Virus record (IMG/VR): IMGVR_UViG_2548876954_000011
DNA: 37,865 nt
Strand: one strand, 5' to 3'
From: a virus
Lineage: Duplodnaviria > Heunggongvirae > Uroviricota > Caudoviricetes
A program made the position numbers and the translations under genes. This document shows positions 2,092-37,865 of this stretch, in pieces. The notes under the pieces were generated by a model. The model did not search any database, was not told the DNA's origin, and saw only the letters and a program-made list of their open reading frames with translations. Position 1 is the stretch's first letter, and each line of letters starts with the position of its first letter.

Positions 2092-2103
2092 TCCAATATC
2101 CTT

Positions 2104-10052: not shown

Positions 10053-11135
10053 ATGATAAACGTTACAAACGAAATGCTCATTGATGTTGTCAGTGATGCT
10101 CTTACCGGGAAGAGGGAAAGTCTCCTCATGCGGTTGCGGATTATGGCAAAAAAACTAAAAAAAGAATCTCCTGAATTAGCGGGTAAATTAGAAGATTTAC
10201 TTATTAATACAGGTGGCGCAATTGCAGTCGAAAGGGCTAATCCAGTTGTTCCTAAAATAACACCTGTTGATGCGGATACAAGACAAAAGCTGCTAGTTGA
10301 AACATATCCTGTGGTCATTGATGTTGAACCTGTTTGGCCAACAAAAACTGATGTTCAACTGAATCGATTTGTGGCTGAGTGGGAAATGAAAGAACGCCTT
10401 TATAAAGAAGGGTTGCATCCGTCCAAATCTCTTCTTATGGGAGGACCACCCGGTGTGGGGAAGACTTTGGCTGCAAAGTGGCTCGCTTTTAAACTCGATA
10501 TGCCATTGTTAACATTAGATCTCGCAAGTGTAATGAGTAGCTACTTGGGGAAAACGGGTAATAATATTAAGGCAGTCCTCAATTATGCTTCGTCATTCCC
10601 TTGTGTACTGCTTCTTGACGAATTTGATGCGATTGCTAAAAAAAGGGATGATGCAACAGATGTTGGAGAACTAAAAAGATTAGTTACAGTATTATTGCAA
10701 GCAATTGATGAATGGCCAAATACGTCTGTTCTTATAGCAGCAACTAACCATGCGGAGCTGCTTGATCCTGCTGCATGGAGAAGATTCGATCGAGTTATTG
10801 ATTTTGAATATCCAACACAAGACCTAATGAGAAGATATCTCTGTTCTAAAAATATTGGAGATAGCTTATCGTACTATATTGCTACAAAACTCGAAAAAGT
10901 TTCATATGCAGTTCTTGAGAGAGCTATAAATCAAGCTAAAAGAAATGCCATTATAGAAGATATTCCTTTAAGTTCAGCTTTAATTGATGAGTTGTTAGAT
11001 GGCGTGTCACTTGATGATGTTATAAAAAACATGTCAAACAACAATGTATCACAAAGAAAAATCGCTTTAGATTTGGGGATTTCAAGGTCACAAGTACGTA
11101 AGGTTTTGACGGTTGAGGATGAAGACAATGAATGA
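10053..11135 (+). CDS. AAA+ ATPase (IetA-like), first gene of the cargo cassette
   Basis: 360 aa; Walker A GGPPGVGKT (around 10440-10466), Walker B LLLDEFD (around 10610-10630); C-terminal HTH-like segment SQRKIALDLGISRSQVRKVL; AT-rich; stop overlaps the protease start (ATGAATGA). Confidence 0.85.
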   Translation: MINVTNEMLIDVVSDALTGKRESLLMRLRIMAKKLKKESPELAGKLEDLLINTGGAIAVERANPVVPKITPVDADTRQKLLVETYPVVIDVEPVWPTKTDVQLNRFVAEWEMKERLYKEGLHPSKSLLMGGPPGVGKTLAAKWLAFKLDMPLLTLDLASVMSSYLGKTGNNIKAVLNYASSFPCVLLLDEFDAIAKKRDDATDVGELKRLVTVLLQAIDEWPNTSVLIAATNHAELLDPAAWRRFDRVIDFEYPTQDLMRRYLCSKNIGDSLSYYIATKLEKVSYAVLERAINQAKRNAIIEDIPLSSALIDELLDGVSLDDVIKNMSNNNVSQRKIALDLGISRSQVRKVLTVEDEDNE

Positions 11136-13320
11136 TAAAAATATGCTTCTTGGCTATGGTGAAACACTAACTAACCCTGTTAAACTTAACAGAGGTGGAG
11201 GTGAAAAGAATAAACCTTACTCTTATTCAGAAAATAAACCAGTGATATCTGCTCAACTGGAAGAGTTGATTGAGGAAATTAATACCCTTCCATTGTTAGC
11301 AATGCCTGAAGGTAAGGCTGTAGCAAAATTTGTTTTGCATCCGGCATTCTTAGCAAAAAGTTATTTTCCAGTAAGTCTTTTTGAGCGATTTTCCCTAGAA
11401 AGCATAGGCAGTAAGGCTGTAAAAGTAAAACCTAGAAAAGATATTAAAAAAAGAGGGCGAAAAGAGGAATACACTACAGCGTGTATTTATGTTTCTGGCA
11501 AAAAAGAAAGTTTTCAATCATTCTTAGACTCTGTAAATCAAGATACCCTAACGAAAGGGCAGCAAAATGATTTTGTCACCTTAGAAAATATTTCAATACT
11601 GGAAGTTTCAGATAAAGTAAAAACGATTAATAGCAATGAAGTTATGAGTATTGAGGTCGCCTTACATACTCCTGATACAAGTTCCTCTATTGTCGATAGT
11701 TTTGAAGTTTTTGCTTCGCAAAATGGTGCTGTTATAGATAAGGCAAGAAGTATAAAGGTTAAGGGGCTAACCTTTATGCCTATTAAGGCTAGTAAAGATG
11801 TAGCTTTAAAAGTTGCAGAGTTTTCATTTCTCAGGACTTTGAGAGAACTTCCTGAATTAAGGCTAAGTGAGCCTGTTATATCACGTTCTGTGATTCAAAC
11901 ATCTAACCTTAGTTTACCATCTGAAGGAGCGGTAAACCCACATATAAAGGTTGCCATATTCGATGGTGGATTGGGGATCGATGATTTCAATCCTTGGGTA
12001 ACAGAGTACACTTTCAACGGTAATGCTAGTACTAATGCAAAACTTCTTTCTCATGGACAAGATGTCACCTCTACTGTGTTATTTGGTGTTCTTGGCTCTG
12101 AAACGGAAAAATTAAGTGTTCCTTATTGTAATATTGACCATTATCGTGTACTGGATTCCAATGTTAATAACTCAGATGTCGATCTTTTTGACGTTCTGAT
12201 CCGTATTAAAAGTGTATTAGAACAAAAAAAATATGATTATATCAATCTGAGCTTAGGACCTAGATTACCTGTTGATGACGATGACGTGCATGTGTGGACC
12301 TCAACTCTTGAGGAGATACTTGCATCAGGAGAAACACTTTGTACTGTCGCGGTTGGAAATGATGGTCAGCTGCCTGCCAAGTTAAATCGAATTCAACCAC
12401 CTGCTGATTTAGTTAATGGTCTGTCAGTAGGTGCAGCAACCTCTTTATCTGATAGTTGGGAAAGATGTTCTTACAGTTGTATTGGTCCTGGACGAAGCCC
12501 TGGCTTTGTGAAGCCTGATGGAGTTGCATTTGGAGGACATTCTGATGAGCCATTCCAGGTATACAGCCCTATGGTTAATGGTCTTGCCCGCACTGCGGGG
12601 ACTAGCTTTTCAGCTCCATTAGTCCTGAGGCAAGCAATCGCGTTAAGTGCTTCTCTAAATTACAACATTACACCACTTACGGCTAAAGCTCTGCTTATAC
12701 ATCATGCGGAGAGCAATAATATCAATCGTGCTGAAGTTGGTTGGGGACGATTTCCTCATGATCTTAGTGAAGTAATATTTTGTGATGATGATGAAGTTAA
12801 AGTTATATATCAAGGTACTTTAAAACCATCACAACACATGCGAGCACCTATTCCGTTTCCAGATGTACCTATGCGTGGATGTGTAAATTTAAGAGCGACA
12901 TTCTGCTTTTCCAGTCCTGTAGATGCGGAACATCCTTTGAATTATACAAGAAGCGGTCTAGAAGTAACCATGAGAAAAGGTGTTTCAGATAGTTCCGGGT
13001 TAACGTTTCCTCTTTTTAATCTAAAAAATGTTTATGCAGATGAAAATGAGCAACGTGTTGATGCACATAAATGGGAGACTACGTTAAGAAGTGAACACAA
13101 ATTTAAACCGAATGAGCTGACAAACCCATGCTTTGATATTATCTACTATGGTAGAGACTGTGGTATGCCTATTGATGTTGACGAGTTAGAAGAACTACCA
13201 TATGTTCTTGTCGTGACTTTATCTGCTGAAGAAATGCCGGATTTATATAACCTAATTAGGCAGAAATATCAAACCTTACAGCCTATACAAGTTCAACAGC
13301 AAATTATGTTACGTACTTAA
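11128..13320 (+). CDS. Subtilisin-like serine protease (peptidase S8 family, IetS-like), probably cytoplasmic
   Basis: 730 aa from the ATG at 11128 (GAGGA about 9 nt upstream; in-frame alternatives at 11113 and 11119); S8 catalytic motifs in the right order: D in VAIFDGGLG (codon 11962-11964), H in LSHGQDV (12052-12054), oxyanion N in AVGNDGQ, S in AGTSFSAP (12604-12606); no N-terminal signal peptide evident. Confidence 0.85.
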   Translation: MNDKNMLLGYGETLTNPVKLNRGGGEKNKPYSYSENKPVISAQLEELIEEINTLPLLAMPEGKAVAKFVLHPAFLAKSYFPVSLFERFSLESIGSKAVKVKPRKDIKKRGRKEEYTTACIYVSGKKESFQSFLDSVNQDTLTKGQQNDFVTLENISILEVSDKVKTINSNEVMSIEVALHTPDTSSSIVDSFEVFASQNGAVIDKARSIKVKGLTFMPIKASKDVALKVAEFSFLRTLRELPELRLSEPVISRSVIQTSNLSLPSEGAVNPHIKVAIFDGGLGIDDFNPWVTEYTFNGNASTNAKLLSHGQDVTSTVLFGVLGSETEKLSVPYCNIDHYRVLDSNVNNSDVDLFDVLIRIKSVLEQKKYDYINLSLGPRLPVDDDDVHVWTSTLEEILASGETLCTVAVGNDGQLPAKLNRIQPPADLVNGLSVGAATSLSDSWERCSYSCIGPGRSPGFVKPDGVAFGGHSDEPFQVYSPMVNGLARTAGTSFSAPLVLRQAIALSASLNYNITPLTAKALLIHHAESNNINRAEVGWGRFPHDLSEVIFCDDDEVKVIYQGTLKPSQHMRAPIPFPDVPMRGCVNLRATFCFSSPVDAEHPLNYTRSGLEVTMRKGVSDSSGLTFPLFNLKNVYADENEQRVDAHKWETTLRSEHKFKPNELTNPCFDIIYYGRDCGMPIDVDELEELPYVLVVTLSAEEMPDLYNLIRQKYQTLQPIQVQQQIMLRT

Positions 13321-22395: not shown

Positions 22396-22751
22396 CGCTT
22401 TATAGCGGGATGAACAATACCAGCGGCAAAGTCATTACTGATATTGATCATCTGCGCCAGTCGGTGCGGGACATTCTGCTGACACCGCAGGGTAGCCGTA
22501 TTGCCCGCCGGGAATATGGTTCCCTGCTGTCGGCACTGATAGATCAGCCACAAAATCCGGCATTACGCCTGCAGGTCATGTCGGCAGTGTATGTGGCGCT
22601 GAGTCGCTGGGAGCCACGGTTGACGCTGGATTCCATCACCATCAACAGCAATTTTGACGGTTCAATGGTGGTGGAGCTGACCGGGCGGCGGAATAACGGT
22701 GTGCCTGTGTCCCTTTCCGTATCAACAGGAGCAGAGAATGGCAGTGATTGA
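22392..22751 (+). CDS. W: Baseplate wedge protein (P2 gpW / T4 gp25-like)
   Basis: 119 aa (P2 W is about 115 aa); start overlaps the V stop. Confidence 0.85.
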   Translation: MTLYSGMNNTSGKVITDIDHLRQSVRDILLTPQGSRIARREYGSLLSALIDQPQNPALRLQVMSAVYVALSRWEPRLTLDSITINSNFDGSMVVELTGRRNNGVPVSLSVSTGAENGSD

Positions 22752-23646
22752 CCTTTCGCAGTTGCCTGCACCGCAGATTGTGGATGTGCCGGACTTTGAG
22801 ACGCTGCTTGCCGAACGCAAGGCAGAATTTGTGGCGCTTCATCCGAAAGATGAGCAGGAAGCAGTGATCCGCACGCTGGAACTGGAATCTGAACCCGCCA
22901 CTAAATTGTTGCAGGAGAACGCTTACCGTGAGTTGCTTCTGCGCCAGCGTATTAACGAAGCCGCGCAGGCGGTGATGGTGGCTTACGCGATGGGCGGCGA
23001 TCTTGACCAGCTCGCTGCCAACTACAACGTGACACGCCTGACGGTGACGCCTGCTGATAATGATGCTGTGCCGCCCGTTGCAGCTGTGATGGAAAGCGAT
23101 GAAGCGTTGCGCCTGCGTGTGCCTGCAGCCTTTGAAGGGCTTTCTGTTGCGGGGCCAACTGCAGCTTATGAATTTCATGCCCGAAGCGCCGACGGTCGGG
23201 TGGCGGATGCCAGTGCAACCAGCCCGGCACCTGCAGAGGTGGTGCTGACTGTCCTTAGCCGCGAAGGCGATGGAACTGCAGAAAAAGACCTGCTGGACGT
23301 GGTGGAAAAAGCTCTGAACAGTGAGAACGTCCGCCCGGTGGCTGACCGTCTTACGGTTCGCAGCGCAGAAATCATCCCGTATCGCGTGGAAGCCACCATT
23401 TTTCTCTATCCGGGACCGGAAGCAGAGCCGGTAATGGCAGCGGCAAAAGCTAGTCTGCAGAAGTACATTGCCAGCCAGACGAGGCTTGGTCGGGATATTC
23501 GCCGTAGCGCCATCTTTGCTGCTCTGCATGTTGAGGGTGTTCAACGTGTGGAACTGGCTTCTCCGCTGGCGGATGTGGTCCTGAACAAAACACAGGCGGC
23601 ATCATGTACGCAGTGGAGCGTAACCAACGGAGGAACGGATGAATAG
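22738..23646 (+). CDS. J: Baseplate protein J (P2 gpJ-like)
   Basis: ATG at 22738 preceded by AGGAG gives 302 aa, the same as P2 J. Confidence 0.85.
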   Translation: MAVIDLSQLPAPQIVDVPDFETLLAERKAEFVALHPKDEQEAVIRTLELESEPATKLLQENAYRELLLRQRINEAAQAVMVAYAMGGDLDQLAANYNVTRLTVTPADNDAVPPVAAVMESDEALRLRVPAAFEGLSVAGPTAAYEFHARSADGRVADASATSPAPAEVVLTVLSREGDGTAEKDLLDVVEKALNSENVRPVADRLTVRSAEIIPYRVEATIFLYPGPEAEPVMAAAKASLQKYIASQTRLGRDIRRSAIFAALHVEGVQRVELASPLADVVLNKTQAASCTQWSVTNGGTDE

Positions 23647-24244
23647 TCTGCTGCCACCGGGTTCAACTTCACTGGAGCGCCGACTGGCGCAAACCTGTAG
23701 CGGGATTTCTGATTTGCAGGTGCCGCTTCGTGACTTGTGGAATCCGGCTACCTGTCCGGTCAGCTTCCTGCCTTATCTCGCCTGGGCGTTCTCTGTGGAT
23801 CGCTGGGACGAGGGCTGGACAGAAAGCGTCAAACGCCAGGTAGTGAAGGATGCTTTTTATATTCATCAGCATAAAGGAACCACCAGTGCCGTGCGGCGGG
23901 TGGTGGAACCGTTCGGATTCCTGATCCGCATTATTGAGTGGTGGCAGACCGGAGAAACACCGGGCACGTTTCGCCTGGATATCGGCGTGCAGGACCAGGG
24001 CATCACTGAAGATACCTATCTGGAACTTGAGCGACTGATAAGCGATGCCAAACCATGTAGCCGCCACATGATCGGCATGTCCATCAATCTGCAGACCAGC
24101 GGCCCGCATTGGGTGGGAGCCGCCAGCTATCTTGGCGAAGAAATCACGATCTATCCGTATATCAACGAAACGATTATTTCCGGTGGCACCGCGCATGAAG
24201 GCGGGGCGGTCCATGTTATTGACACAATGAGAGTGAATCCATGA
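23639..24244 (+). CDS. I: Baseplate protein I (P2 gpI-like)
   Basis: 201 aa; overlaps the J stop; synteny. Confidence 0.8.
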   Translation: MNSLLPPGSTSLERRLAQTCSGISDLQVPLRDLWNPATCPVSFLPYLAWAFSVDRWDEGWTESVKRQVVKDAFYIHQHKGTTSAVRRVVEPFGFLIRIIEWWQTGETPGTFRLDIGVQDQGITEDTYLELERLISDAKPCSRHMIGMSINLQTSGPHWVGAASYLGEEITIYPYINETIISGGTAHEGGAVHVIDTMRVNP

Positions 24245-25647
24245 GCACAAAATTTTATACCCTGCTGACGGATATTGGCGCGGCGAAACTTGCCAGCGCC
24301 GCCGCGCTCGGTGTGCCGCTAAAAATTACCCATATGGCGGTGGGCGATGGCGGTGGAGTATTGCCAACGCCGGACGCAAAGCAGACGGCACTGGTAAATG
24401 AGAAACGCCGGGCTGCGCTGAATATGCTTTATATCGACACGCAGAACAGCAGCCAGATTATTGCCGAACAGGTGATCCCTGAAAACGAGGGCGGTTGGTG
24501 GATACGTGAAGTGGGCTTGTTTGATGAGTCCGGGGCATTGATTGCCGTGGGCAACTGCCCGGAAAGCTATAAGCCGCAACTGGCTGAAGGTAGCGGGCGC
24601 ACTCAGACCGTGCGCATGGTGCTGATTACCAGCAGCACGGACAATATCACCCTGAAAATCGACCCTGCTGTAGTGCTGGCAACCCGCAAGTATGTGGATG
24701 ACAAGGCACTGGAGCTGAAGGTGTACGCGGATGATCAGATGGCAAAACATCTTGCCGCACCGGACCCGCATTCACAGTACGCGCCAAAAGCCAGCCCGAC
24801 ATTTACCGGAACCCCCAAAGCGCCAACGCCAGCGGCGGGGAATAATACCACGCAGGTTGCGACCACTGCGTTTGTACAGGCGGCACTGACGGCCCTTATT
24901 AATGGTGCGCCAGCCACGCTGGACACGCTGAAAGAAATAGCCGCAGCCATTAACAATGATCCGAATTTCAGTACCACCATTAACAATGCGCTGGCACTAA
25001 AAGCACCGTTGTCGAGTCCGGCACTCACCGGAACGCCAACAGCCCCCACGGCGGCGCAGTCGGTCAACAATACACAGATTGCCACTACGGCTTTTGTGAA
25101 ATCGGCGATTGCAGGAATGGTGGGTTCTGCACCTGCTGCACTGGATACACTGAACGAACTGGCGGCGGCACTGGGGAATGATCCGAACTTTGCCACGACA
25201 ATGCTTAATGCGCTGGCAGGTAAACAACCGCTGGACAATACGCTTACCAATTTGAGTGGAAAGGATGTAGCTGGTCTTCTCACATACCTTGGTTTAGGAG
25301 AAGCGGCGAAAAGGGATGTGGGCACAGGAGATAATCAGATACCTGATATGTCTTACTGGTCTTCACCGGCAGGCGGAATTAATTTCCCGAATGGGTTCCA
25401 GATGCGATTCGGGACTATCGCTGGTACTGGTGGAAAATTATTTTCTACGCCATTTACAAATCAGTGCTATGGCATTGTTTTCGGACAAACATATGGAGCC
25501 AACTACTGGATGTTCAGCCCGATGTACAGAGCATCTGATCTGAGTAATACCGGTTTTGCATTCATTAACAAAGCCTGGTCTGGCGTTCCGGGGGTAGGTT
25601 CTCAGGACGCTGGTGAATCAGTTTTTTATATTGCAGTAGGGTATTAA
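24241..25647 (+). CDS. H: Tail fibre protein (P2 gpH-like) with an invertible C-terminal segment (current orientation)
   Basis: 468 aa; N-terminus MSTKFYTLLTDIGAAKLASAAALGVPLKITHMAVGDGGG is the conserved P2 H-type N-terminal domain; internal tandem ~72-aa repeats; the C-terminus beyond GLGE (from 25303) lies inside the invertible segment. Confidence 0.8.
   Translation: MSTKFYTLLTDIGAAKLASAAALGVPLKITHMAVGDGGGVLPTPDAKQTALVNEKRRAALNMLYIDTQNSSQIIAEQVIPENEGGWWIREVGLFDESGALIAVGNCPESYKPQLAEGSGRTQTVRMVLITSSTDNITLKIDPAVVLATRKYVDDKALELKVYADDQMAKHLAAPDPHSQYAPKASPTFTGTPKAPTPAAGNNTTQVATTAFVQAALTALINGAPATLDTLKEIAAAINNDPNFSTTINNALALKAPLSSPALTGTPTAPTAAQSVNNTQIATTAFVKSAIAGMVGSAPAALDTLNELAAALGNDPNFATTMLNALAGKQPLDNTLTNLSGKDVAGLLTYLGLGEAAKRDVGTGDNQIPDMSYWSSPAGGINFPNGFQMRFGTIAGTGGKLFSTPFTNQCYGIVFGQTYGANYWMFSPMYRASDLSNTGFAFINKAWSGVPGVGSQDAGESVFYIAVGY
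24790..25218 (+). repeat. Two tandem ~72-codon repeats inside the tail-fibre gene
   Basis: ASPTFTGTPKAPTPAAGNNTTQVATTAFVQAALTALINGAPATLDTLKEIAAAINNDPNFSTTINNALALK followed by APLSSPALTGTPTAPTAAQSVNNTQIATTAFVKSAIAGMVGSAPAALDTLNELAAALGNDPNFATTMLNALAGK. Confidence 0.7.
25277..25302. repeat. Left crossover site of the invertible segment (hix/gix/cix-like 26-bp site) inside gene H
   Basis: TTCTCACATACC-TT-GGTTTAGGAGAA, an imperfect palindrome of the Hin/Gin/Cin site type; encodes …LLTYLGLGE; inverted-repeat partner at 27074-27099. Confidence 0.6.
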
Positions 25648-25648
25648 T

Positions 25649-26092
25649 ATGGAAATGGTTTATAGCGCCTCAAATAATAGTTTTTTCGCTAAAAATGATG
25701 TGGCGAAATATGAACAGGCCGGATGGGAACTTGCTGATATTGTCGAAGTGACATATGACACTTACCTGGAATTTATTGAAGACAGAACGTTGCAAGGGAA
25801 AGTACGCATCGCGGGTGATGATGGCCTTCCCACCTGGGGGGAAATTCCACCGCCAACTCATGAGGAACAAATTGCCGCAGCCGAACTGGAAAAGCAGCAA
25901 TTGATTAATCAGGTCAACGAATACATATACAGTAAGCAATGGCCTGGTAAAGCAGCGATTGGTCGCCTGAAAGGTGAGGAACAGGCGCAATATAATTTGT
26001 GGCTGGATTATCTGGACGCACTGGAACTGGTTGATACCTCCAGTGCTCCAGATATTGAATGGCCTACGCCTCCGGCAGTTCAGGCCAGATGA
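25649..26092 (+). CDS. G: Tail fibre assembly protein (P2 gpG / Tfa-like), paired with the current H C-terminus
   Basis: 147 aa immediately after H; …NLWLDYLDALELVDTSSAPDIEWPTPP C-terminus typical of Tfa chaperones. Confidence 0.75.
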   Translation: MEMVYSASNNSFFAKNDVAKYEQAGWELADIVEVTYDTYLEFIEDRTLQGKVRIAGDDGLPTWGEIPPPTHEEQIAAAELEKQQLINQVNEYIYSKQWPGKAAIGRLKGEEQAQYNLWLDYLDALELVDTSSAPDIEWPTPPAVQAR

Positions 26093-26675
26093 CATCCGGC
26101 GCGGTGCTCGTATCTGTTGCCGTCACCGCGTCAATGTAATCAAGCACGGCGTTAAGCCGGGTGGTTTCTGCCTGCGTCAGCTTCCGCCCGGCCTGTAATT
26201 TCAGCTGAATCAGACTGATCGAAGCCATTGCAGCATCAATCAGTGACTGGCGCTGTGCTTCTGCCGCTTCTACTGCGGCGCTATGCTGTGCCTCAGTATC
26301 TGTCACCCATTTCTCACCATCCCATTCATCGTATGGAGTTAACGGGGCGATAGTGGTTGTATTTTCAGGATATTCGCCAATTTCGGTGATGGTGATTTCA
26401 TCGCCGTTTTCAGTGTTGTAAACAGTTTCGCCACGATGGTCAGCAACGTATTCCCAACTGGTTAAATCAGCCTTGCGGCAGATTGCGAAACCTTCTTTTT
26501 TGCTGCCCGGCGCATCAACGCAGGAATTAGCTGGAACGCCAGCGCCAACCGGCAGATATTCAACGGATGAACCAATATATTCACGCGTTTCGCCATTGTA
26601 GTTGTAAACGGTAATAAATCCAGCCTCAGTGGCAAAACCGTTTTCATCCAAAGTGATTTTTTTTGTGGTCATCAT
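26064..26675 (-). CDS. Alternative tail fibre assembly protein (Tfa'), paired with the alternative fibre C-terminus
   Basis: 203 aa on the opposite strand; C-terminus …RLNAVLDYIDAVTATDTSTAPDVIWPELPEA parallels that of the plus-strand Tfa; its start overlaps the stop of the alternative fibre segment. Confidence 0.7.
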   Translation of the reverse strand: MMTTKKITLDENGFATEAGFITVYNYNGETREYIGSSVEYLPVGAGVPANSCVDAPGSKKEGFAICRKADLTSWEYVADHRGETVYNTENGDEITITEIGEYPENTTTIAPLTPYDEWDGEKWVTDTEAQHSAAVEAAEAQRQSLIDAAMASISLIQLKLQAGRKLTQAETTRLNAVLDYIDAVTATDTSTAPDVIWPELPEA

Positions 26676-27073
26676 GCTGCCCTTACAATGTAGTTAAATG
26701 CAATGTTGCGCGGCCTTGTTTCAGTCCCACCCGTCGCATTAGTTTCCCTACTGGAGGTGCCTCCGGTTTTTAATACATCATCTGCGCTGGTAGCTGATGT
26801 TGCCCCGCTAACTCGGATAGCTAATAAATGCGTATGAGATTGGATTGCTCCTCCCTGCGCAGATAGCAATGCACGGCCACTATCTATCCCTCGACCATCA
26901 TCCCAGCCACGAATAAATTCACCGCGTAAATCAGGCACTTTATTTGTCGGATAAGCCTTCGCCAGTTCCGGGTATTCTTCAGCAGAAAAAGCGGCACCGT
27001 TGCATTTCAGCCAGCCTGTTGGCGGAGTGGCGGAAGGCCACGGAACAGGCACGCCAACGGGTAATGCCGAACC
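26672..27073 (-). other. Promoterless alternative tail-fibre C-terminal coding segment, expressed only after inversion
   Basis: Minus-strand frame reads …FLNVGLGE|GSALPVGVPVPWPSATPPTGWLKCNGAAFSAEEYPEL…; the GLGE junction is encoded by the right crossover site; resembles Mu/P1/e14-type variable fibre C-termini. Confidence 0.6.
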
Positions 27074-27099
27074 TTCTCCCAAACCAACGTTTAAGAAAA
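27074..27099. repeat. Right crossover site of the invertible segment
   Basis: TTCTCCCAAACC-AA-CGTTTAAGAAAA; its left half is the reverse complement of GGTTTGGGAGAA, matching the right half of the 25277-25302 site (GGTTTAGGAGAA) at 11 of 12 positions. Confidence 0.6.
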
Positions 27100-27154
27100 T
27101 GCAGAGGTAACAGCTAACTGGCATCATCTCCGGTTTTTATTCAGGGGGATGATC

Positions 27155-27721
27155 ATGCTTATTGGCTATGTACGCGTGTCAACAAATGACCAGAACACCG
27201 ATTTGCAACGTAATGCACTGAACTGCGCGGGATGTGAGCGGATTTTTGAGGACAAAATCAGTGGCACTAAGTCCGACAGACCGGGGCTGAAAAAACTACT
27301 CAGGACACTATCGGCAGGAGACACGCTGGTTGTCTGGAAGCTGGACAGGTTGGGGCGCAGTATGCGACATCTTGTTACGCTGATAGAAGAGTTGCGCCAG
27401 CGTGGTGTGAATTTCAGAAGCCTGACTGACAGTATTGATACCAGTACCCCAATGGGCCGTTTCTTTTTTCATGTCATGGGTGCCCTGGCTGAAATGGAAC
27501 GCGAACTGATAGTTGAACGTACCAGGGCAGGGCTGGCTGCAGCTCGTGCCAAAGGCAGAGTAGGTGGACGCCGTCCTAAGTTGACCACCGAACAGTGGGC
27601 ACAGATTGGGCGTTTACTCGAGGCCGGAGAATCAAGACAGCGTATTGCACTGATTTTTGATGTAGGCGTTTCTACCATTTATAGAAAATTTCCGGCAAAT
27701 AAGATCAATGAATCCCCCTGA
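27155..27721 (+). CDS. Serine DNA invertase (Gin/Hin/Cin/Pin family)
   Basis: MLIGYVRVSTNDQNTDLQRNAL… is near-identical to my recollection of the Mu Gin N-terminus; catalytic Ser in YVRVST; C-terminal HTH; adjacent to the invertible fibre segment. Confidence 0.9.
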   Translation: MLIGYVRVSTNDQNTDLQRNALNCAGCERIFEDKISGTKSDRPGLKKLLRTLSAGDTLVVWKLDRLGRSMRHLVTLIEELRQRGVNFRSLTDSIDTSTPMGRFFFHVMGALAEMERELIVERTRAGLAAARAKGRVGGRRPKLTTEQWAQIGRLLEAGESRQRIALIFDVGVSTIYRKFPANKINESP

Positions 27722-27769
27722 ATCAGCATTATGTTGATTATCCCTGCAAGCAGACAAATACCGTTATTT

Positions 27770-27787
27770 TGTGTGAATAACGACACA
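27770..27787. promoter_or_regulatory. Ogr-type late promoter site upstream of FI
   Basis: TGTGTGAATAACGACACA (TGT-N12-ACA) about 85 bp upstream of the FI ATG at 27864. Confidence 0.45.
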
Positions 27788-27863: not shown

Positions 27864-29036
27864 ATGGCTCAGGATTACCACCACGGGGTGCGCGTTGTTG
27901 AAGTCAACGAAGGCACCCGATCTATTACCACGGTGAGCACCGCCATCGTGGGTATGGTCTGCACGGGCGATGATGCCGATGCAAAAATGTTTCCTCTTAA
28001 TAAACCCGTGCTGATCACTGATGTGCTGACTGCCAGCGGTAAAGCGGGTGAGTCAGGTACTCTGGCCCGTTCGCTGGATGCCATCGCTGACCAGGCAAAA
28101 CCCGTGACCATTGTTGTGCGTGTGCCGCAGGGTGAAACGGAAGACGAAACCACGACCAATATCATCGGCGCAGTGACTGCTGAAGGTAAAAAAACAGGTA
28201 TGAAAGCCCTGTTATCTGCCCAGTCACAGCTCGGCGTTAAACCGCGCATTCTCGGCGTGCCAGGCCACGACACCAAGGCGGTAGCTACTGAGTTGCTGAG
28301 CGTGGCGCAAAGCCTGCGTGGATTTGCTTACCTGTCAGCGTATGGCTGCAAGACAGTGCAGGAGGCGATCACTTACCGCGAAAACTTCAGCCAGCGCGAA
28401 GGGATGCTGATCTGGCCTGACTTTACTGGCTGGGACACGGTGCTGAATGCCGAAGCAACGGCATATGCTACCGCCCGTGCGCTTGGTCTGCGCGCCAAAA
28501 TTGACGAGCAGACCGGATGGCACAAAAGCCTGTCCAATGTGGGCGTGAACGGTGTCACCGGAATTTCTGCAGATGTGTTCTGGGATCTGCAGGACCCGGC
28601 AACCGATGCAGGTCTGCTGAACCAGAACGACGTCACCACGCTTGTGCGTAAAGACGGTTTCCGCTTCTGGGGTTCCCGCTGCCTGAGTGATGACCCGCTC
28701 TTTGCCTTCGAAAACTACACCCGCACGGCGCAGGTGCTGATGGACACGATGGCAGAAGCACACATGTGGGCGGTGGATAAACCGCTTAACCCGTCGCTGG
28801 CCCGCGACATTATCGAAGGTATCCGCGCCAAAATGCGCAACCTGGTCAGTCAGGGCTATCTCATTGGTGGTGATTGCTGGCTGGACGAGTCGGTGAACGA
28901 CAAAGACACGCTTAAAGCCGGAAAACTCACCATCGACTACGACTACACGCCAGTGCCGCCACTTGAAAATCTGATGCTGCGCCAGCGCATCACCGATCAG
29001 TACCTGGTGAATTTCGCCAGCCAGGTCAGCGCGTAA
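27864..29036 (+). CDS. FI: Tail sheath protein (P2 gpFI-like)
   Basis: 390 aa (P2 FI is about 396 aa); first gene of the tail operon. Confidence 0.9.
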
Positions 29037-29918: not shown

Positions 29919-30052
29919 CGGTTGACGATCTGGTGGCAGATATCGCCACCATTTTTCACTGGCCGCCATCCGTTACTGACGTTATGCCGCTGACCGAAGT
30001 GCTGGAATGGCGGTATAAAGCGATTCAGAGAAGCGGGGCCAACGATGAGTGA
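29616..30052 (+). CDS. gpE+E' -1 frameshift extension product (tail assembly chaperone, long form)
   Basis: Slippery heptamer TTTTTTG at 29874-29880; the -1 frame stays open to a TGA at 30050-30052 (…FFVEEVGACRFTDSLTVDDLVADIATIFHWPPSVTDVMPLTEVLEWRYKAIQRSGANDE), overlapping the T start; this is the conserved E/E' (lambda G/GT-like) arrangement. Confidence 0.55.
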
Positions 30053-33000
30053 TAACAACCTGCGTCTGCAGGTCATTCTTAATGCGGTTGACAAGCTCAC
30101 CCGCCCATTTCGATCTGCGCAGGCCAGTTCAAGAGAACTGGCTGCTGCTGTCAAAAAATCCCGCGATGCAATAAAGCAGCTTGATCAGGCCGGGAGCAGT
30201 CTGGACAGCTTCCGAAAGCTGCAGGCAGAAAATCAGAAATTAGGCGACAGGCTGAACTATGCCCGCCAGCGTGCAAATTTGCTCAGTCAGGAACTGGGAG
30301 CGATGGGGCCGCCTTCGCAACGTCAGGTTGTTGCTCTGGGCCGTCAACGGCTGGCTGTTCAGCGCCTGGAAGAACGCCAGAAAAAGCTGCAGCAGCAGAC
30401 GGCGCTTGTGCGTGCTGAACTGTACCGGGCGGGAATTTCTGCGAAAGACGATGCGGGAGCAACTGCCCGTTTAGCCCGTGAAACATCACGTTATAACCAG
30501 GAACTTTCGAAACAGGAGGCGCGGCTGAAGCGACTGGGGGAAGCTCAGCGCAGGATGAATGCAGCGCGTGCCAGTTATGCCCGTTCGCTGGAGGTGCGTG
30601 ATCGTATTGCAGGTGCCGGAGCCACCACCACGGCTGCAGGGCTGGCAATGGGTGCGCCAGTGATGGCGGCAGTAAAAAGCTATACCAGCATGGAAGATGC
30701 CATGAAAGGTGTGGCAAAGCAGGTCAATGGTCTGCGTGACGATAATGGCAACCGCACTGCACGTTTTTATGAAATGCAGGATGCCATCAAGGCTGCCAGC
30801 GAATAGTTGCCGATGGAAAACGGTGCGGTGGACTTCGCTGCACTGGTTGAAGGTGGTGCGCGCATGAACGTCGCAAACCCTGACGACAGCTGGGAAGATC
30901 AGAAACGTGACCTGCTGGCCTTCGCCAGTACGGCAGCAAAGGCGGCAACAGCCTTTGAGCTGCCAGCGGATGAACTGTCAGAAAGTCTGGGGAAAATCGC
31001 CCAGCTCTACAAAATCCCCACCCGCAATATTGAACAGCTCGGTGATGCGCTGAACTATCTGGATGATAACGCCATGTCGAAAGGGGCAGACATCATTGAT
31101 GTGATGCAACGTCTGGGCGGTGTGGCTGACCGTCTGGATTATCGTAAAGCGGCGGCGCTGGGTTCCACCTTCCTGACACTGGGCGCTGCGCCAGAGGTTG
31201 CAGCCAGTGCAGCAAACGCGATGGTGCGTGAATTGTCCATTGCCACCATGCAAAGCAAGAGTTTCTTTGAAGGGATGAATCTGCTGAAACTCAATCCTGA
31301 AGTGATTGAAAAGCAGATGACGAAGGATGCGATGGGAACCATCCAGCGCGTGCTGGAGAAGGTAAACGCGCTGCCGCAGGACAAGCGCCTGTCTGCCATG
31401 ACTATGTTGTTTGGTAAAGAGTTTGGCGATGACGCGGCGAAACTGGCAAACAACCTGCCGGAACTGCAGCGTCAGTTAAAACTGACAGCGGGCAATGATG
31501 CGCTCGGCTCCATGCAGAAAGAATCCGACATTAACAAGGATTCACTTTCTGCGCAGTGGTTGCTGGTCAAAACCGGAGCGCAGAACACCTTCAGCAGCCT
31601 GGGCGAAACGCTGCGCCAGCCGCTGATGGATATTCTGTACACGGTGAAAAGCGTCACGGGGGCGTTGCGTCGCTGGGTGGAAGCTAACCCGGAACTGACA
31701 GGCACACTGATGAAAGCATCGGCTGTTGTGGCTGCGGTTACCGTCGGCCTCGGCACCTTAGCGGTGGCGCTGGCTGCAGTGCTGGGGCCGCTGGCAGTGA
31801 TCCGTCTGGGATTCTCTGTGTTGGGTATCAAAACGTTATCTTCCGTTACGGCAGCAGTAACTCGAACCAGCAGCGCGTTGTCCTGGCTGGCTGGCGCGCC
31901 ACTGGCACTGCTGCGACGCGGGCTTGCTTCATCGGGCAACGCCGCAGGTTTACTTACTGCGCCGTTGTCGTCTTTGCGCCGCACGGCATCACTGACGGGA
32001 AATGTCCTGAAAACTGTAGCAGGTGCGCCGGTTGCACTTTTGCGGTCTGGATTATCCGGTTTACGTGCTGTTGCTGTGATGTTTATGAATCCTCTGGCGG
32101 TACTGCGCGGTGGACTGGCCGCCGCAGGCACGGTGCTGCGAGTACTGGCATCTGGTCCACTGGCGATGCTGCGCGTTGCCCTGTATGCCATATCTGGTCT
32201 GTTAGGTGCTCTGCTCAGTCCGATAGGTCTTGTGGTTACTGCACTGGCGGGCGTGGCGCTGGTTGTCTGGAAATACTGGCAACCCATCACCGCATTTCTC
32301 GGTGGCGTGGTGGAAGGATTCAAAGCGGCGGCAGGTCCCATCAGTGCAGCGTTCGAACCGCTTAAGCCCGTGTTCCAGTGGATTGGCGACAAAGTGCAGG
32401 CGCTGTGGGGCTGGTTTACTGATCTGCTGACGCCCGTTAAGTCGACCTCTGCCGAACTGCAGAGCGCAGCGGCAATGGGGCGACGATTCGGGGAGGCACT
32501 GGCAGAAGGGCTGAATATGGTCATGCATCCGCTGGACTCCCTGAAATCCGGCGTTTCCTGGTTGCTGGAGAAACTCGGCATTGTCAGTAAAGAGGCTGCA
32601 AAGGCGAAACTGCCGGAAAGCGTGACGCGTCAGCAACCTGCGACGGTGAATGCAGACGGTAAAGTGATGATGCCATCGGGTGATTTTCCGTCATGGGGAT
32701 ATGGCTTTGCGGGGATGTATGACAGCGGCGGCTATATCCCGCGCGGGCAGTTTGGCATCGTCGGTGAAAACGGGCCGGAAATTGTTAACGGCCCGGCAAA
32801 CGTGACCAGCCGGAGAAATACAGCTGCACTGGCTGCCGTTGTCGCCGGAATGATGGGTGTTGCTGCCGCGCCAGCAGAGCTTCCACCGTTGCATCCTTTG
32901 GCGCTTCCCGCAAAAGGCGGTGAAGCGATGGTGAGTCGTGCAGCTACTGTGCCGCCCATTTACCGGATTGAAGCACCGACGCAGATCATCATCCAGACAC

Positions 33001-33122
33001 AGCCAGGACAAAGTGCGCAGGATATTGCGCGGGAGGTGGCCCGCCAGCTTGATGAACGTGAACGCAGGCTGAAGGCAAAAGCCAGGAGTAACTACAGCGA
33101 TCAGGGGGGATACGACGCATGA
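30045..33122 (+). pseudogene. T: Tail tape-measure protein (P2 gpT-like) interrupted by an in-frame TAG at 30804-30806
   Basis: ORFs 30045-30806 and 30807-33122 are in the same frame, separated only by TAG (…DAIKAASE*LPMENGAVDF…); together about 1025 codons with tape-measure features (N-terminal coiled coil, long Ala/Gly/Leu-rich helical repeats). Could be a nonsense mutation, a sequencing error or suppressor-dependent readthrough. Confidence 0.5.
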
Positions 33123-35245: not shown

Positions 35246-36931
35246 TTATCCTAATCCTGGCCATACCATGACGATGATTGTCCCTGCCAGCGTCAGCAGG
35301 ACGTTGGCGATTGCATAGGTGCCCGCATAGCCCAGCGCCGGGATGTTACTGCGAGCTGTATCACTGATGATCTCCATTGCCGGCGCGCAGGTGCGTGCGC
35401 CCATCATTGCGCCGAACAACAGTGCGCGGTTCATTCGCAATACATAAGCACCGAACAAGAAACAGATAACCACTGGCACAAGACTGACAATCAATCCGGC
35501 AATCAACATCTGACCGCCAATCGCGCCCAGGCCGTTATTAATACCGCTACCGGCGCTCAGACCAACGCCTGCCATAAACACCATTAAGCCGAACTCTTTC
35601 ACCATGCTTAATGCACCCTGCGGAATGTAACCGAAGGTCGGGTGGTTAGCGCGCATAAATCCCAGCATAATTCCGGCGAATAACAACCCGGCAGCGTTCC
35701 CCATGCCGAAACTGAATGTGCTGAACTGGAAGGTGATCATCCCGATCATCAGCCCAATAACAAAGAAGGCGCAGAATGCCAGCAAGTCAGTGACCTGGCT
35801 GTGAATCGAGATAAAGCCGATGCGATCGGCGATGGTTTTTACGCGACGGGCATCGCCGCTGACTTGTAAAACGTCACCTTTGTTAAGCACGACGTTGTCA
35901 TCTATCGGCATCTCAATCTGGCTACGAATGACGCGGTTAAGGAAGCAACCGTGATCGGTCAACTTCAGTTGTGCGAGACGTTTGCCCACGGCGTTATGGT
36001 TTTTAACGACCACTTCTTCAGTGACGATACGCATGTCGAGAAGGTCACGATCGAAAACTTCTTTGCCGTTACGGAAGCTGGGATCGAGTCGTGCGTGGGC
36101 GTCGGGATAGCCTACCAACGCTATTTCATCGCCCATTTGTAGCACAGCATCACCGTCTGGATTCGCCAGAATCCCGTTACGTCGAATACGTTCAATGTAG
36201 CAGCCAGTTTGTCGATAAATACCCAGTTCACGCAGATTTTTGCCGTCGGTCCAGGCCACCAGCTCCGGGCCGACGCGGTAGGCGCGGATCACCGGTAAAT
36301 AAACCTTACGGTTGGCATCAGTGTCCAGACCACGTTCGCGGGCGATTTGCTGGGCGCTGGTCTGTAAGTCCTGATGCTGCAATTTCGGCAAGTAACGCGC
36401 ACCAACAATCAAACTCACCAGACCGATTAAATAGGTTAAGGCATACCCGAGGCTCAGATTATCCAGTGCCAGTGAGAGCTGCCTGCTTTCCATGCCGGAA
36501 TGACGCAGTGTATCGCCAGCACCGACCAGAACCGGTGTCGACGTCATAGAGCCAGCTAACATACCGGCCGTCAGGCCAATATCCCAGCCAAACAGCTTAC
36601 CTAACCCTAAGGCGATCACCAGCGCACTGCCAACCATCACCAGTGCTAACATTAGGTAATTTTTCCCATCGCGAAAAAAAATGGAAAAAAAGTTCGGTCC
36701 GGCTTCGACCCCGACGCAGAAAATAAACAGCATAAAGCCAAGATTAAGCGCGTCGGTGTTAATGCTGAAATGTTGTTGGCCTAATAACAGCGATACGACT
36801 AAAACGCCAATGGAATTACCCAGTTGGATCGAACCAAGTCGTAATTTCCCGAGACATAGCCCAAGCGCGAGGACCACAAATAATAACAGAATGTAATTCC
36901 CATTTAACAATTCGGCGACGTTTATATTCAC
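35246..36931 (-). CDS. ybjL: Putative transport protein YbjL (host)
   Basis: 561 aa, N-terminus [39 protein letters not shown]… matches the E. coli YbjL inner-membrane transporter in length and sequence as I recall it. Confidence 0.85.
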
Positions 36932-37200
36932 GGAGGCTAACTTCTTGTTTACTAGTAAGCTGTTGAAAGAAATGGTAATTTACGATAATGTTTTTTACCA
37001 GAATTCAGGGCGCAGATTCATTCAGCGCACCTAAACGATAGTAAAGTAACAATATATTTTACTAGTGTAATCACATTAGGTATCAACGGCTATATGAATT
37101 GCGTTGGCCTATATTAGCATGGAATGCGAAGCGGCTTTATCTTACTGAACGCCACACTGGCGAAAAATGTGTTCGATAGACGCAGTGTCAGGAGGAACGA

Positions 37201-37578
37201 GTGAAACATAAACAACGTTGGGCGGGGGCAATTTGCTGTTTTGTCCTCTTCATTGTGGTGTGTCTTTTTCTGGCGACGCACATGAAAGGCGCTTTTCGGG
37301 CTGCCGGGCATCCTGAAATCGGTTTGCTATTTTTCATTCTTCCTGGTGCAGTTGCCAGCTTCTTTTCACATCGTAGAGAAGTCCTGAAACCTCTGTTTGG
37401 CGCAATGCTGGCGGCACCCTGTTCGATGCTCATTATGCGGCTGTTTTTTTCACCGACGCGCTCATTCTGGCAAGAGCTGGCATGGTTATTAAGTGCGGTG
37501 TTCTGGTGTGCGCTGGGGGCATTGTGTTTCTTATTTATCAGTAGTTTGTTTAAACCACAGCACAGAAAAAATCAATAA
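37201..37578 (+). CDS. ybjM: Inner membrane protein YbjM (host)
   Basis: 125 aa hydrophobic protein between ybjL and grxA, as in the E. coli K-12 gene order. Confidence 0.7.
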   Translation: MKHKQRWAGAICCFVLFIVVCLFLATHMKGAFRAAGHPEIGLLFFILPGAVASFFSHRREVLKPLFGAMLAAPCSMLIMRLFFSPTRSFWQELAWLLSAVFWCALGALCFLFISSLFKPQHRKNQ

Positions 37579-37600
37579 AGCCCTCAACGCGAGGGCTTGT
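37578..37600. terminator. Bidirectional rho-independent terminator between the convergent ybjM and grxA
   Basis: AAGCCCTC-AACGC-GAGGGCTT hairpin flanked by A/T on both sides. Confidence 0.5.
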
Positions 37601-37607
37601 CAGACGA

Positions 37608-37865
37608 TCAGGCGTCCAGATTCTCTTTCACCCATGCAGCAAAATCGGTATAGCCGCCGATATGTTGCTGATCGACAAAAATCTGCGGCACGGTTTCTAC
37701 GGGTTTTCCTGCCTTTTGTTGTAGATCTTCTTTAGTGATCCCTTCCGCACGAATATCTACATACTGATACTGGAAATCATCGCGTTCATTGCTCAATTTC
37801 TCAGCCAGATCTTTTGCACGCACACAGTAAGGGCAACCCGGACGACCAAAAATAACGGTTTGCAT
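37608..37865 (-). CDS. grxA: Glutaredoxin 1 (host)
   Basis: 85 aa, MQTVIFGRPGCPYCVRAKDLAEKL… with the CPYC active site; the ATG is the last three bases of the window. Confidence 0.9.
   Translation of the reverse strand: MQTVIFGRPGCPYCVRAKDLAEKLSNERDDFQYQYVDIRAEGITKEDLQQKAGKPVETVPQIFVDQQHIGGYTDFAAWVKENLDA

What the first reader, a model, noticed from the sequence alone, without database searches (positions are those of the whole stretch)
25277..27721. Gin/Hin-type invertible tail-fibre segment carrying two alternative fibre C-termini and two chaperones
A 26-bp hix/gix-like site lies inside gene H (25277-25302) and a partner in inverted orientation lies just upstream of the invertase gene (27074-27099). 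Both encode the junction peptide GLGE in their respective reading directions. Between them are the current H C-terminus with its Tfa on the plus strand, and a promoterless alternative C-terminus with its own Tfa on the minus strand. Inversion by the adjacent Gin-like recombinase would switch the receptor-binding tip and thus host range. This is a Mu G-segment-like module grafted onto a P2-type tail fibre.
Basis: partly seen in the sequence, partly recalled or inferred. Interest (0 to 1): 0.6.

Follow-up and report, generated by a model that had tools for sequence, protein, structure and literature searches.

The report
Invertible tail-fibre switch, P2-like prophage
This E. coli P2-like prophage carries a flip-flop DNA segment, run by a Gin/Pin-type invertase, that swaps the tip of its tail fibre and the matching chaperone; it is real and well supported, but it is an ordinary example of a system already documented in P2-like prophages.

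Summary
Two 26-bp hix/gix/cix-type sites (25277-25302 and 27074-27099) lie in inverted orientation. They are the only such matches in the window (0.01 expected by chance). They bracket two convergent cassettes, each holding a fibre tip and a chaperone. A 188-aa serine invertase follows, closely related to Mu Gin (E 1e-92).

A metagenome contig 99.7% identical to this prophage has the segment flipped, with H fused in frame to the collar tip. That places the crossover within 7 bp containing the core TT. Near-identical E. coli prophages (flanks 99.97-100%) differ only by a 1.8-kb inversion bounded by the same sites. Both recombinant junctions occur in public data.

The 5' end of the invertase gene is homologous to the annotated P1 cin enhancer.

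One refinement: the closest classical relative is the e14 Pin/P-segment, not Mu G.

Inversion of homologous segments in P2-like prophages of EPEC E2348/69 has been shown experimentally, and one of them has an identical right-hand site. The system is therefore already known.

This prophage copy also has an amber codon in its tape-measure gene, so it may not make infectious virions.

The parts
24241..25289 (+). Constant N-terminal part of tail-fibre gene H (Hc), kept in both orientations
   Evidence: PF12571 over aa 1-150, E 2.4e-64. 95-100% identical in dozens of related loci whatever the cassette downstream. Residues 181-340 are 80% identical to the constant part of P1 S next to cixR.
25277..25302 (+). 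Left crossover site (hix/cix-like, core TT) inside H
   Evidence: The outer half, TTCTC(A/G)CATACC, is fixed in most of the related loci.
25290..27086 (.). Invertible segment of 1797 bp between the two core dinucleotides
   Evidence: Found flipped in L089, in L096, and in the E. coli relatives L004/L005 compared with L003. GC is 42-48% against 55% in the flanks.
25290..25647 (+). Currently expressed fibre tip Hv1 (weakly gp53-like C-terminus)
   Evidence: In frame with Hc. PF21882 hit of 19.1 bits, below the 24.9-bit cut-off. Relatives are annotated as gp53-like domain-containing proteins.
25649..26092 (+). Tfa1, the chaperone that goes with Hv1 (147 aa)
   Evidence: PF02413, E 3.3e-30.
26064..26675 (-). 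Tfa2, the chaperone that goes with Hv2 (203 aa); its 3' end overlaps the 3' end of Tfa1 by 29 nt
   Evidence: PF02413, E 8.2e-31. 79% aa identical to e14 TfaE.
26672..27086 (-). Silent alternative fibre tip Hv2 (Collar domain); fuses in frame to Hc after inversion to give a 487-aa H
   Evidence: PF07484, E 2.3e-15. The fused protein matches the T4 gp37 tip, 2XGF, at E 4e-19. An identical 487-aa protein exists in ENA. Its stop overlaps the Tfa2 start by 4 nt, ATGA.
27074..27099 (+). Right crossover site (core AA), which starts 81 bp upstream of the invertase start
   Evidence: It sits at the same offset in nearly all of the 80 related loci. It is identical to the right site of the EPEC E2348/69 P2 remnant, which was shown to invert experimentally.
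27155..27721 (+). Gin/Pin-type serine DNA invertase (188 aa)
   Evidence: Mu Gin 3uj3, E 1.2e-92, full length. Ser9 and the wild-type Met114 are present. PF00239 and PF02796. 85% aa identical to e14 PinE.
27173..27244 (+). Putative recombinational enhancer (Fis sites) inside the invertase gene, nt 19-90
   Evidence: Homologous to the annotated P1 cin enhancer, cin nt 19-90: 56/72 identical against 71% for the rest of the gene. Synonymous-codon conservation is raised at both ends of the element. Conserved G-N13-C 15-mers lie at gene nt 22-36 and 71-85.

Best explanation
This is a two-state, invertase-driven host-range switch of the Hin/Gin/Cin/Pin class, sitting at the Z/fun position of a P2-like (Peduoviridae) E. 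coli prophage. The late V-W-J-I-H operon transcribes the constant part of H up to the left site. Whatever lies to the right of that site supplies the receptor-binding tip and, directly downstream, its cognate Tfa chaperone. In the orientation seen here, the gp53-like tip Hv1 and Tfa1 are expressed, while the collar-type tip Hv2 and Tfa2 face the wrong way and have no detectable promoter. The invertase binds the two 26-bp sites as dimers. It is probably activated by Fis bound to the enhancer inside its own 5' coding region, which begins about 87 bp from the right site. It cuts at the central TT/AA dinucleotides through Ser9, rotates one pair of subunits by 180 degrees and religates. That flips the 1797-bp segment and yields Hc-Hv2 (487 aa) followed by Tfa2. 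A lysogen population would therefore release virions of two receptor specificities. What the data show: the sites, the preserved reading frame, an intact invertase, and both orientations and both recombinant junctions in near-identical natural elements. What is inferred: Fis dependence, silence of the minus-strand cassette, and the consequence for host range.
For: Sites and chance expectation. Gene content. Invertase close to Mu Gin over its full length, with Ser9, wild-type Met114 and the Q-x-x-R-L motif. The in-silico inverted H exists at 100% identity (P0002). Its contig, L089, is 99.66% identical to the inverted window over 7.7 kb. The recombinant site there, TTCTCACATACC TT GGTTTGGGAGAA, confines the crossover to site positions 13-19. 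The right recombinant junction is found in L096, which is colinear with the inverted window over 4.3 kb at 95.3%. E. coli APEC 16-1068 against E16002 and SF-468: flanks 99.97-100% identical, interior of 1799 bp reversed at 99.9%, breakpoints inside the homologous sites. Among the IMG/VR relatives in which a collar-type cassette was detected, it is silent in 26 and flipped in 18. The Hc-collar junction occurs in 374 complete E. coli genomes and the window-type junction in 4. Inversion was shown experimentally by sequencing and PCR in P2-like prophages of EPEC E2348/69 (PMC4272514), one of which has the identical right site. Enhancer homology.
Against: There are no reads from this strain, so flipping of this very copy is not observed directly. 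The two sites agree at only 20 of 26 positions, and the outer half of the right site has two mismatches to the consensus; however, it is conserved in all relatives, including the experimentally flipping one. The Fis sites are placed by homology and synonymous-site conservation, not by a validated Fis model, and the two candidate cores are 49 bp apart centre to centre rather than the 48 bp I recall for hin. The synonymous-site test uses non-independent pairs. The tape-measure gene of this copy carries an in-frame TAG, so the switch may have no phenotypic output from this prophage.
Confidence: 0.9

Rival explanations
1. The switch is a frozen relic in this copy. The architecture is that of an invertible segment, but the prophage is defective and the segment no longer flips, or flips without consequence.
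For: An amber codon at 30804-30806 interrupts the tape-measure gene, where phage 500465-1 has CAG. All public copies 100% identical to the window that I saw are in the same orientation (L007, L008).
Against: The invertase ORF is full length with the catalytic Ser9. Both sites are intact and identical or near-identical to those of elements seen in both orientations. The EPEC P2 remnant, which lacks most of the prophage, still flips. A second, 100% identical assembly has a contig that ends exactly at the core of the right site, as expected for a mixed population. The TAG could also be suppressed or be a sequencing error.
Confidence: 0.12
2. The orientation differences among relatives arise from general homologous recombination or horizontal replacement of cassettes, not from site-specific inversion by the adjacent recombinase.
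For: The interior is highly mosaic among relatives. Cassettes of different kinds sit between the same Hc and invertase, and the distance between sites ranges from 1100 to 1984 bp. Low GC suggests foreign origin. A preprint describes this locus as a hotspot for swapping receptor-binding proteins.
Against: The inverted repeats are only about 18-26 bp, too short for efficient RecA recombination. The breakpoints coincide with the sites and fall in a 7-bp interval containing the core. The interiors are 99.9-100% identical between the two orientations, so these are simple flips and not replacements. In FRphi, deleting gin abolishes the rearrangements (PMC13418256). Cassette exchange is real, but it is an additional and slower process.
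Confidence: 0.03
3. The two 26-mers are a chance inverted repeat, and the minus-strand ORFs are unrelated leftovers.
For: Identity between the sites is only 20 of 26, and the repeat finder did not list the pair among its top inverted repeats.
Against: 0.01 matches are expected by chance and 2 are found. The position and sequence are conserved in nearly all of about 80 relatives. The reading frame is preserved across the junction. The predicted fusion protein exists.
Confidence: 0.01

Closest known systems
e14 cryptic prophage P-segment with PinE (E. coli K-12: stfP-tfaP / tfaE-stfE / pinE)
   Same: The layout is the same: fibre C-terminus plus Tfa, a convergent Tfa plus C-terminus, then the invertase. 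The invertase is 85% aa identical. DNA is 80-84% identical over Tfa2, the start of Hv2 and the invertase. The core is TT/AA, and the right site differs by 1 nt. The e14 segment flips to about 1:1 in culture.
   Different: e14 is a lambdoid remnant with a truncated, nonfunctional tail module. Here the switch sits in a P2-type H gene within an otherwise complete P2-like tail operon. The Hv1/Tfa1 cassette is only 55% aa identical or unrelated.
Invertible tail-fibre loci of P2-like prophages in EPEC E2348/69 (Goldberg et al. 2014, PMC4272514)
   Same: The position is the same, just upstream of FI (sheath). The cassette types are the same (collar tip with a 200-aa Tfa, gp53-like tip with a 147-aa Tfa). 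The 26-bp right site is identical, and the invertase is 77-80% aa identical. Inversion was shown by paired-end sequencing and PCR.
   Different: One EPEC locus is a prophage remnant. The other has three repeats of 215 bp and four states. The window has the simple two-site, two-state form.
Phage Mu G segment with Gin
   Same: The logic is the same: constant Sc, alternative Sv/Sv', cognate U/U', and an invertase just outside the segment that carries the enhancer in its 5' end. The invertase scores E 1e-92 against the Gin structure 3uj3.
   Different: The G segment is 3 kb and its core is TC/GA. The G-segment cassettes have no DNA homology to this segment (Tfa about 33% aa). Only the invertase matches, at 70% DNA.
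Phage P1 C segment with Cin
   Same: The core is TT/AA and the site family is the same. The P1 record annotates an enhancer at cin nt 19-90, homologous to window 27173-27244 (56/72). The constant part of P1 S next to cixR is 80% aa identical to Hc residues 181-340.
   Different: cin lies on the other side of the segment, with cixL at its 3' end. The segment is 4.2 kb and the virion is different.
Salmonella Hin/hix flagellar phase variation
   Same: The recombinase subclass, the 26-bp sites and the Fis/enhancer invertasome mechanism are shared.
   Different: Hin flips a promoter, not a coding cassette. The hin gene lies inside the invertible segment.
Multi-inversion fibre shufflons (FRphi Gin in Enterobacter, PMC13418256; p15B Min)
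   Same: A Gin-family invertase diversifies tail-fibre C-termini. Host range depends on the locked state.
   Different: Those systems have three or more sites and C-termini. Only two sites exist here.

Membership tests
Fis/enhancer-dependent DNA invertase systems (Hin/Gin/Cin/Pin) | Small serine recombinase with an N-terminal catalytic domain carrying the nucleophilic Ser9/10 and a C-terminal HTH domain | tested here: met
   PF00239 and PF02796. Full-length alignment to Gin at E 1.2e-92, with Ser9 present in MLIGYVRVSTNDQ.
Fis/enhancer-dependent DNA invertase systems (Hin/Gin/Cin/Pin) | Two 26-bp sites, each an imperfect dyad of 12-bp half-sites around a 2-bp core; the cores are identical and the sites are in inverted orientation | tested here: met
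   The half-sites match each other at 9/12 and 8/12, and the core is TT on the left and AA on the right. The same scan recovers the annotated Mu and P1 crossover points.
Fis/enhancer-dependent DNA invertase systems (Hin/Gin/Cin/Pin) | Recombinational enhancer of about 65-72 bp with a Fis site at each end, close to one recombination site | tested here: inconclusive
   Window 27173-27244 is homologous to the annotated P1 enhancer (56/72) and begins about 87 bp from the centre of the right site. Synonymous-codon identity is 0.59 in codons 7-30 against 0.43 elsewhere, with peaks at both ends. Conserved G-N13-C 15-mers are present. Fis binding itself was not tested.
Fis/enhancer-dependent DNA invertase systems (Hin/Gin/Cin/Pin) | Invertase residues that contact Fis and the enhancer (Hin Q151, R154, L155; basic helix B), and the wild-type residue at the position where a mutation gives Fis independence (Gin M114) | tested here: met
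   The window has EQWAQIGRLL and Gin has AEWEQAGRLL. The helix-B region reads RPGLKKLLRTL. Met is present in ALAEMEREL, where the Fis-independent Gin crystal mutant has Val. Mapping these positions to Hin numbering rests on my own knowledge of the Hin sequence.
Fis/enhancer-dependent DNA invertase systems (Hin/Gin/Cin/Pin) | The segment is actually found in both orientations, with the exchange at the core | tested here: met
   Comparative evidence only: L089, L096, and L003 against L004/L005. The crossover interval is 7 bp and includes the core. This was not observed within a single culture of this strain.
Fis/enhancer-dependent DNA invertase systems (Hin/Gin/Cin/Pin) | Dependence on Fis and on negative supercoiling | not testable with these tools
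   Needs in vitro inversion assays or a fis mutant.
P2-like (Peduoviridae) tail module | Gene order V-W-J-I-H-G(Tfa) followed by FI-FII-E-T-U-D, with an Ogr-type late promoter before FI | tested here: met
   Pfam hits to Baseplate_J, Tail_P2_I, Phage_tail_fib and the sheath. The flanks are 96-100% identical to Peduoviridae phages. TGT-N12-ACA lies at 27770-27787. In P2 itself, fun(Z) occupies the place of the cassette and invertase.
Tail-fibre tip plus cognate Tfa chaperone cassettes | Each alternative C-terminus is followed directly by its own Caudo_TAP chaperone in the same direction | tested here: met
   Hv1/Tfa1 are separated by a 1-nt gap. Hv2/Tfa2 overlap by 4 nt, ATGA.

The most novel reading that the evidence does not exclude
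In this prophage lineage the invertase may be under an extra layer of control or mobility not described for Gin, Cin or Pin. A perfect 12-bp inverted repeat (ATTCAGGGGGAT / ATCCCCCTGAAT) brackets the invertase ORF exactly: one arm covers its ribosome-binding site and the other its stop codon. A terminator-like hairpin lies between the right site and the start codon. This could sequester the RBS in the full-length mRNA and set a low flipping rate, or it could mark the invertase gene as a self-contained mobile cassette. Combined with the amber tape-measure gene, the invertase might be kept for its action in trans on other prophage segments rather than for this phage's own host range.
Probability: 0.06. 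Interest if true: 0.45.

Novelty: already known. Interest (0 to 1): 0.15.

Why it matters
It matters mainly for annotation. The 151-aa minus-strand 'phage tail protein' is a promoterless alternative C-terminus, not a separate gene, and the H protein of such prophages has two forms. Host-range prediction from a single assembly of a P2-like prophage is therefore incomplete, and assemblies may break or mis-orient at these sites. Biologically it is one more instance of bet-hedging on receptor specificity. The locus is also a hotspot where fibre-tip and chaperone cassettes are exchanged among P2-like, e14-like, P1-like and Mu-like elements through the shared crossover sites and the conserved region next to them.

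Tried and rejected
1. The repeat finder with default settings did not report the pair. The exact-seed and extension method misses a 26-bp repeat of 77% identity, so a pattern search was used instead.
2. I looked for additional sites that would make this a multi-inversion shufflon. There are none in the window at up to 3 mismatches. Most of the related loci also show two, or fewer where the fetched stretch is short.
3. I tried to fix the exact Fis cores from the literature. The papers that would give the hin, gin and cin Fis-site sequences were not held. I used the annotated enhancer in the P1 record and synonymous-site conservation instead.
4. NCBIfam gives no family-level name for H, either Tfa or Hv2, and only sub-threshold hits for the invertase. 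Hv1 reaches only a sub-threshold Pfam gp53-like_C hit.
5. Neither Tfa has a relative with a solved structure detectable by sequence.
6. Consensus promoter scanning found no sigma-70-like promoter for the minus-strand cassette or for the invertase. The number of hits in the region equals the shuffled expectation, so the scan is uninformative.
7. The Mu G-segment as the direct source of the module is rejected. Only the invertase is homologous at DNA level.


Full report
**What is in the sequence**

The region lies in the tail module of a P2-like prophage. Pfam identifies baseplate J (22699-23646), P2 gpI (23639-24244) and the tail fibre H (24241-25647, PF12571 at the N-terminus). A Caudo_TAP chaperone follows at 25649-26092. 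On the minus strand there is a second Caudo_TAP chaperone (26064-26675) and a Collar-domain ORF (26672-27127). On the plus strand there is a resolvase/invertase with an HTH_7 domain, followed by the tail sheath FI at 27864-29036.

The left 26-mer, 25277-25302, is TTCTCACATACC TT GGTTTAGGAGAA. The right one, 27074-27099, is TTCTCCCAAACC AA CGTTTAAGAAAA. Read as an inverted pair they agree at 20 of 26 positions, and the similarity stops at the edges of the sites. A degenerate hix-family pattern with up to three mismatches hits only these two places in the 37.9-kb window, against 0.01 expected from dinucleotide shuffles.

A half-site scan built on the same consensus was applied to the Mu and P1 records. 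It returns exactly the annotated G-segment boundaries and the annotated cixL/cixR crossover points at its central dinucleotide. The central TT/AA here is therefore the expected cleavage point.

Both sites encode GLGE in the same codon phase. Exchange at the core joins Hc to the minus-strand C-terminus without a frameshift and gives a 487-aa H.

**Where the window comes from**

The window is 100% identical over 9.4 kb to NCBI assembly GCA_000446905.2 (AIBS01000021.1). It is also 100% identical to a contig of GCA_034321405.1. The right-hand flank, ybjL-ybjM-grxA, is 99.8% identical to E. coli.

The prophage backbone is 96-100% identical to Peduoviridae such as Escherichia phage 500465-1 (Wadgaonvirus) and to several Klebsiella P2-like phages. 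In P2 itself, the space between the fibre genes and FI is occupied by fun(Z). The second cassette and the invertase therefore sit at the Z/fun hotspot.

**Evidence that the segment inverts**

I built the inverted sequence in silico and searched for its products.

1. A protein search with the predicted 487-aa fusion returned P0002, at 100% identity and 100% coverage, from an ENA metagenome assembly.
   - Its contig, L089, is colinear with the inverted window over all 7,700 bp at 99.66% identity.
   - Against the window as given, the alignment breaks at 25303 and resumes on the opposite strand at 27087, at 100% identity over 652 bp.
   - The recombinant site in L089 is TTCTCACATACC TT GGTTTGGGAGAA. 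Positions 1-12 come from the left site, and the diagnostic G at position 20 comes from the right site. The crossover therefore lies in positions 13-19, which include the core.
2. An exact search for the predicted right recombinant junction found three metagenome contigs. L096 is colinear with the inverted window over 4.3 kb at 95.3%.
3. Eleven complete E. coli genomes carry a version of the interior that is about 90% identical. Four of them have the window-type left junction.
   - APEC 16-1068 (L003) and APEC E16002/SF-468 (L004, L005) encode identical flanking proteins.
   - Their flanks are 99.97-100% identical, and their 1,799-bp interiors are 99.9% identical on opposite strands.
   - The breakpoints fall inside the homologous sites.
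4. The Hc-collar junction is present in 374 complete E. coli genomes.
5. Of the 80 IMG/VR loci with invertases 86-100% identical, a collar-type cassette was detected in 44. It is in the silent orientation in 26 and flipped in 18.
6. The right site always starts 81 bp upstream of the invertase start. Its outer half (CGTTTA[A/T]GAAAA) is fixed, as is the outer half of the left site in H. The inner halves travel with the cassettes. That is what exchange at the centre predicts.
7. The contig of the second identical assembly ends exactly at 27087, the last base of the right core. This is the pattern expected if the sequenced culture was mixed. A repeat shared with another prophage could also cause it.

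**The recombinase and its enhancer**

The invertase most likely starts at 27155 and is 188 aa, as annotated in relatives. It aligns end to end with Mu Gin (PDB 3uj3, E 1.2e-92). It has the nucleophile Ser9, and it has Met at the position where M114V makes Gin independent of Fis. The Q-x-x-R-L motif of DNA-binding-domain helix 1 and the basic helix-B region are present. The Johnson laboratory reports these as conserved only in Fis-dependent invertases.

The P1 GenBank record annotates the Cin enhancer at cin nt 19-90. The homologous stretch here is 27173-27244. It is 56/72 identical to P1, 52/72 to Mu and 63/72 to e14, in each case above the identity of the rest of the gene. It begins about 87 bp from the centre of the right site, close to the roughly 100 bp described for hin.

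I compared ten invertase genes: the window, e14 pinE, Mu gin, P1 cin, two EPEC genes and four IMG/VR genes. Codons encoding identical amino acids are identical in 59% of comparisons within codons 7-30, against 43% in codons 31-180. Conservation peaks at codons 1-12 and 25-36 and dips between them. That fits two protein-binding sites at the ends of an enhancer. Conserved 15-mers of the form G-N13-C lie at gene nt 22-36 and 71-85.

This evidence is suggestive, not proof. The pairs are not independent, recombination among invertase genes could mimic the pattern, and Fis binding was not modelled.

**How it most likely works**

The late operon reads through Hc. In the present orientation it produces Hc-Hv1 (468 aa, with a tip that is weakly gp53-like) and Tfa1.

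The minus-strand cassette has no recognisable promoter, though the scan is uninformative there. Its apparent ATG at 27127 lies outside the segment in the invertase leader, with GGAG abutting it. I therefore read the 151-aa ORF as an artefact of ORF calling and not as a gene.

After inversion the operon produces Hc-Hv2 (487 aa). The tip of Hc-Hv2 is related to the T4 gp37 and gp12 collar and tip regions (2XGF, E 4e-19). Tfa2 follows, translationally coupled through ATGA.

The change in host range is inferred from the roles of these domains and from Mu, P1 and FRphi. In FRphi, gin deletion locks the fibre and only one isoform infects the test host.

**Comparison with known systems**

The architecture is that of the Mu G, P1 C and e14 P segments. 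By sequence the nearest classical system is e14:
- PinE is 85% aa identical.
- DNA is 80-84% identical over Tfa2, the start of Hv2 and the invertase.
- TfaE is 79% aa identical.
- The right site differs by one base.

Mu shares only the invertase (70% DNA), and its core is TC/GA instead of TT/AA. Residues 181-340 of Hc are 80% identical to the constant part of P1 S next to cixR. This is the kind of shared sequence that allows cassettes to move between phage types.

Most importantly, Goldberg et al. (PMC4272514) showed by paired-end sequencing and PCR that segments in two P2-like prophages of EPEC E2348/69 invert in culture. I fetched both loci.
- The one at 2.977-2.979 Mb has the same order: collar tip, 200-aa Tfa, 147-aa Tfa, gp53-like tip, recombinase, sheath. 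It has exactly the same 26-bp right site as the window, and its invertase is 77% identical.
- The other is a three-site, four-state version.

[quoted passage not shown] GenBank phage records such as 500465-1 already annotate the same genes.

**Verdict**

Comparative evidence localises the exchange to within 7 bp.

The finding is not novel. It is a standard two-site member of the Pin/Gin/Cin family, of the kind already shown to operate in P2-like prophages. Interest is low. Its practical value is for annotation and for host-range prediction.

**Caveats**

No read-level data exist for this strain. Fis dependence and the phenotypic output are inferred. This prophage copy has an amber codon in its tape-measure gene, which may make the switch moot for virion production.

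Noticed in passing
window 30804-30806 (within 30045-33122): The tape-measure gene has an in-frame TAG where Escherichia phage 500465-1 has CAG (Gln254). The two genes are otherwise the same length and 98.9% identical. This prophage copy may be tail-defective unless the codon is suppressed or is a sequencing error.
   Followed up: partly
window 10053-11135 and 11113-13320: An AAA ATPase and an S8 subtilase match the PADLOC IetA (E 6.7e-84) and IetS (E 1.8e-48) models. This is an IetAS anti-phage defence pair carried between the replication gene and the portal gene, at the P2 old/tin-type hotspot.
   Followed up: partly
window 27139-27150 and 27712-27723: A perfect 12-bp inverted repeat (ATTCAGGGGGAT / ATCCCCCTGAAT) brackets the invertase ORF. 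One arm covers its ribosome-binding site and the other its stop codon. It is perfect in 19 of the 72 related loci scored and 1-2 mismatches off in about 25 more, and it is absent from relatives whose invertase has a different 3' end. Only one possible compensatory pair was seen. A terminator-like hairpin lies at 27116-27135. Function unknown.
   Followed up: partly
L008 (GCA_034321405.1 JAXLMN010000004.1), contig end = window 27087: A second assembly, 100% identical to the window, has a contig that terminates exactly at the core dinucleotide of the right crossover site. This is the break expected if both orientations were present in the sequenced culture, or if the site borders a repeat.
   Followed up: no
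window 25290-27721: GC content falls from about 55% in the flanking tail genes to 42-48% inside the invertible segment and about 50% in the invertase. The GC skew changes sign near 26050-26100, where the two chaperone genes converge and overlap by 29 nt. The interior is highly mosaic among relatives, with site-to-site distances of 1100-1984 bp.
   Followed up: partly
window 27770-27787: TGTGTGAATAACGACACA, a TGT-N12-ACA dyad of the kind bound by Ogr-type activators at P2 late promoters, lies between the invertase stop and FI. It corresponds to the annotated activator site of pF in P2.
   Followed up: no
window 1-3048 and 35246-37865: An integrase lies at the left edge (1-1032, minus strand). 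Beside it are a 186-type CI repressor ORF (2104-3048) and a 325-aa coiled-coil ORF of unknown function (1114-2091). The host genes ybjL, ybjM and grxA lie at the right edge. EPEC E2348/69 has an ogr-family gene at the same chromosomal position.
   Followed up: no
L038, L041, L052 (IMG/VR loci): A few related loci carry three or four hix-like sites and duplicated Hc or invertase matches on opposite strands. This suggests tandem or rearranged prophages, or multi-site versions of the switch.
   Followed up: no
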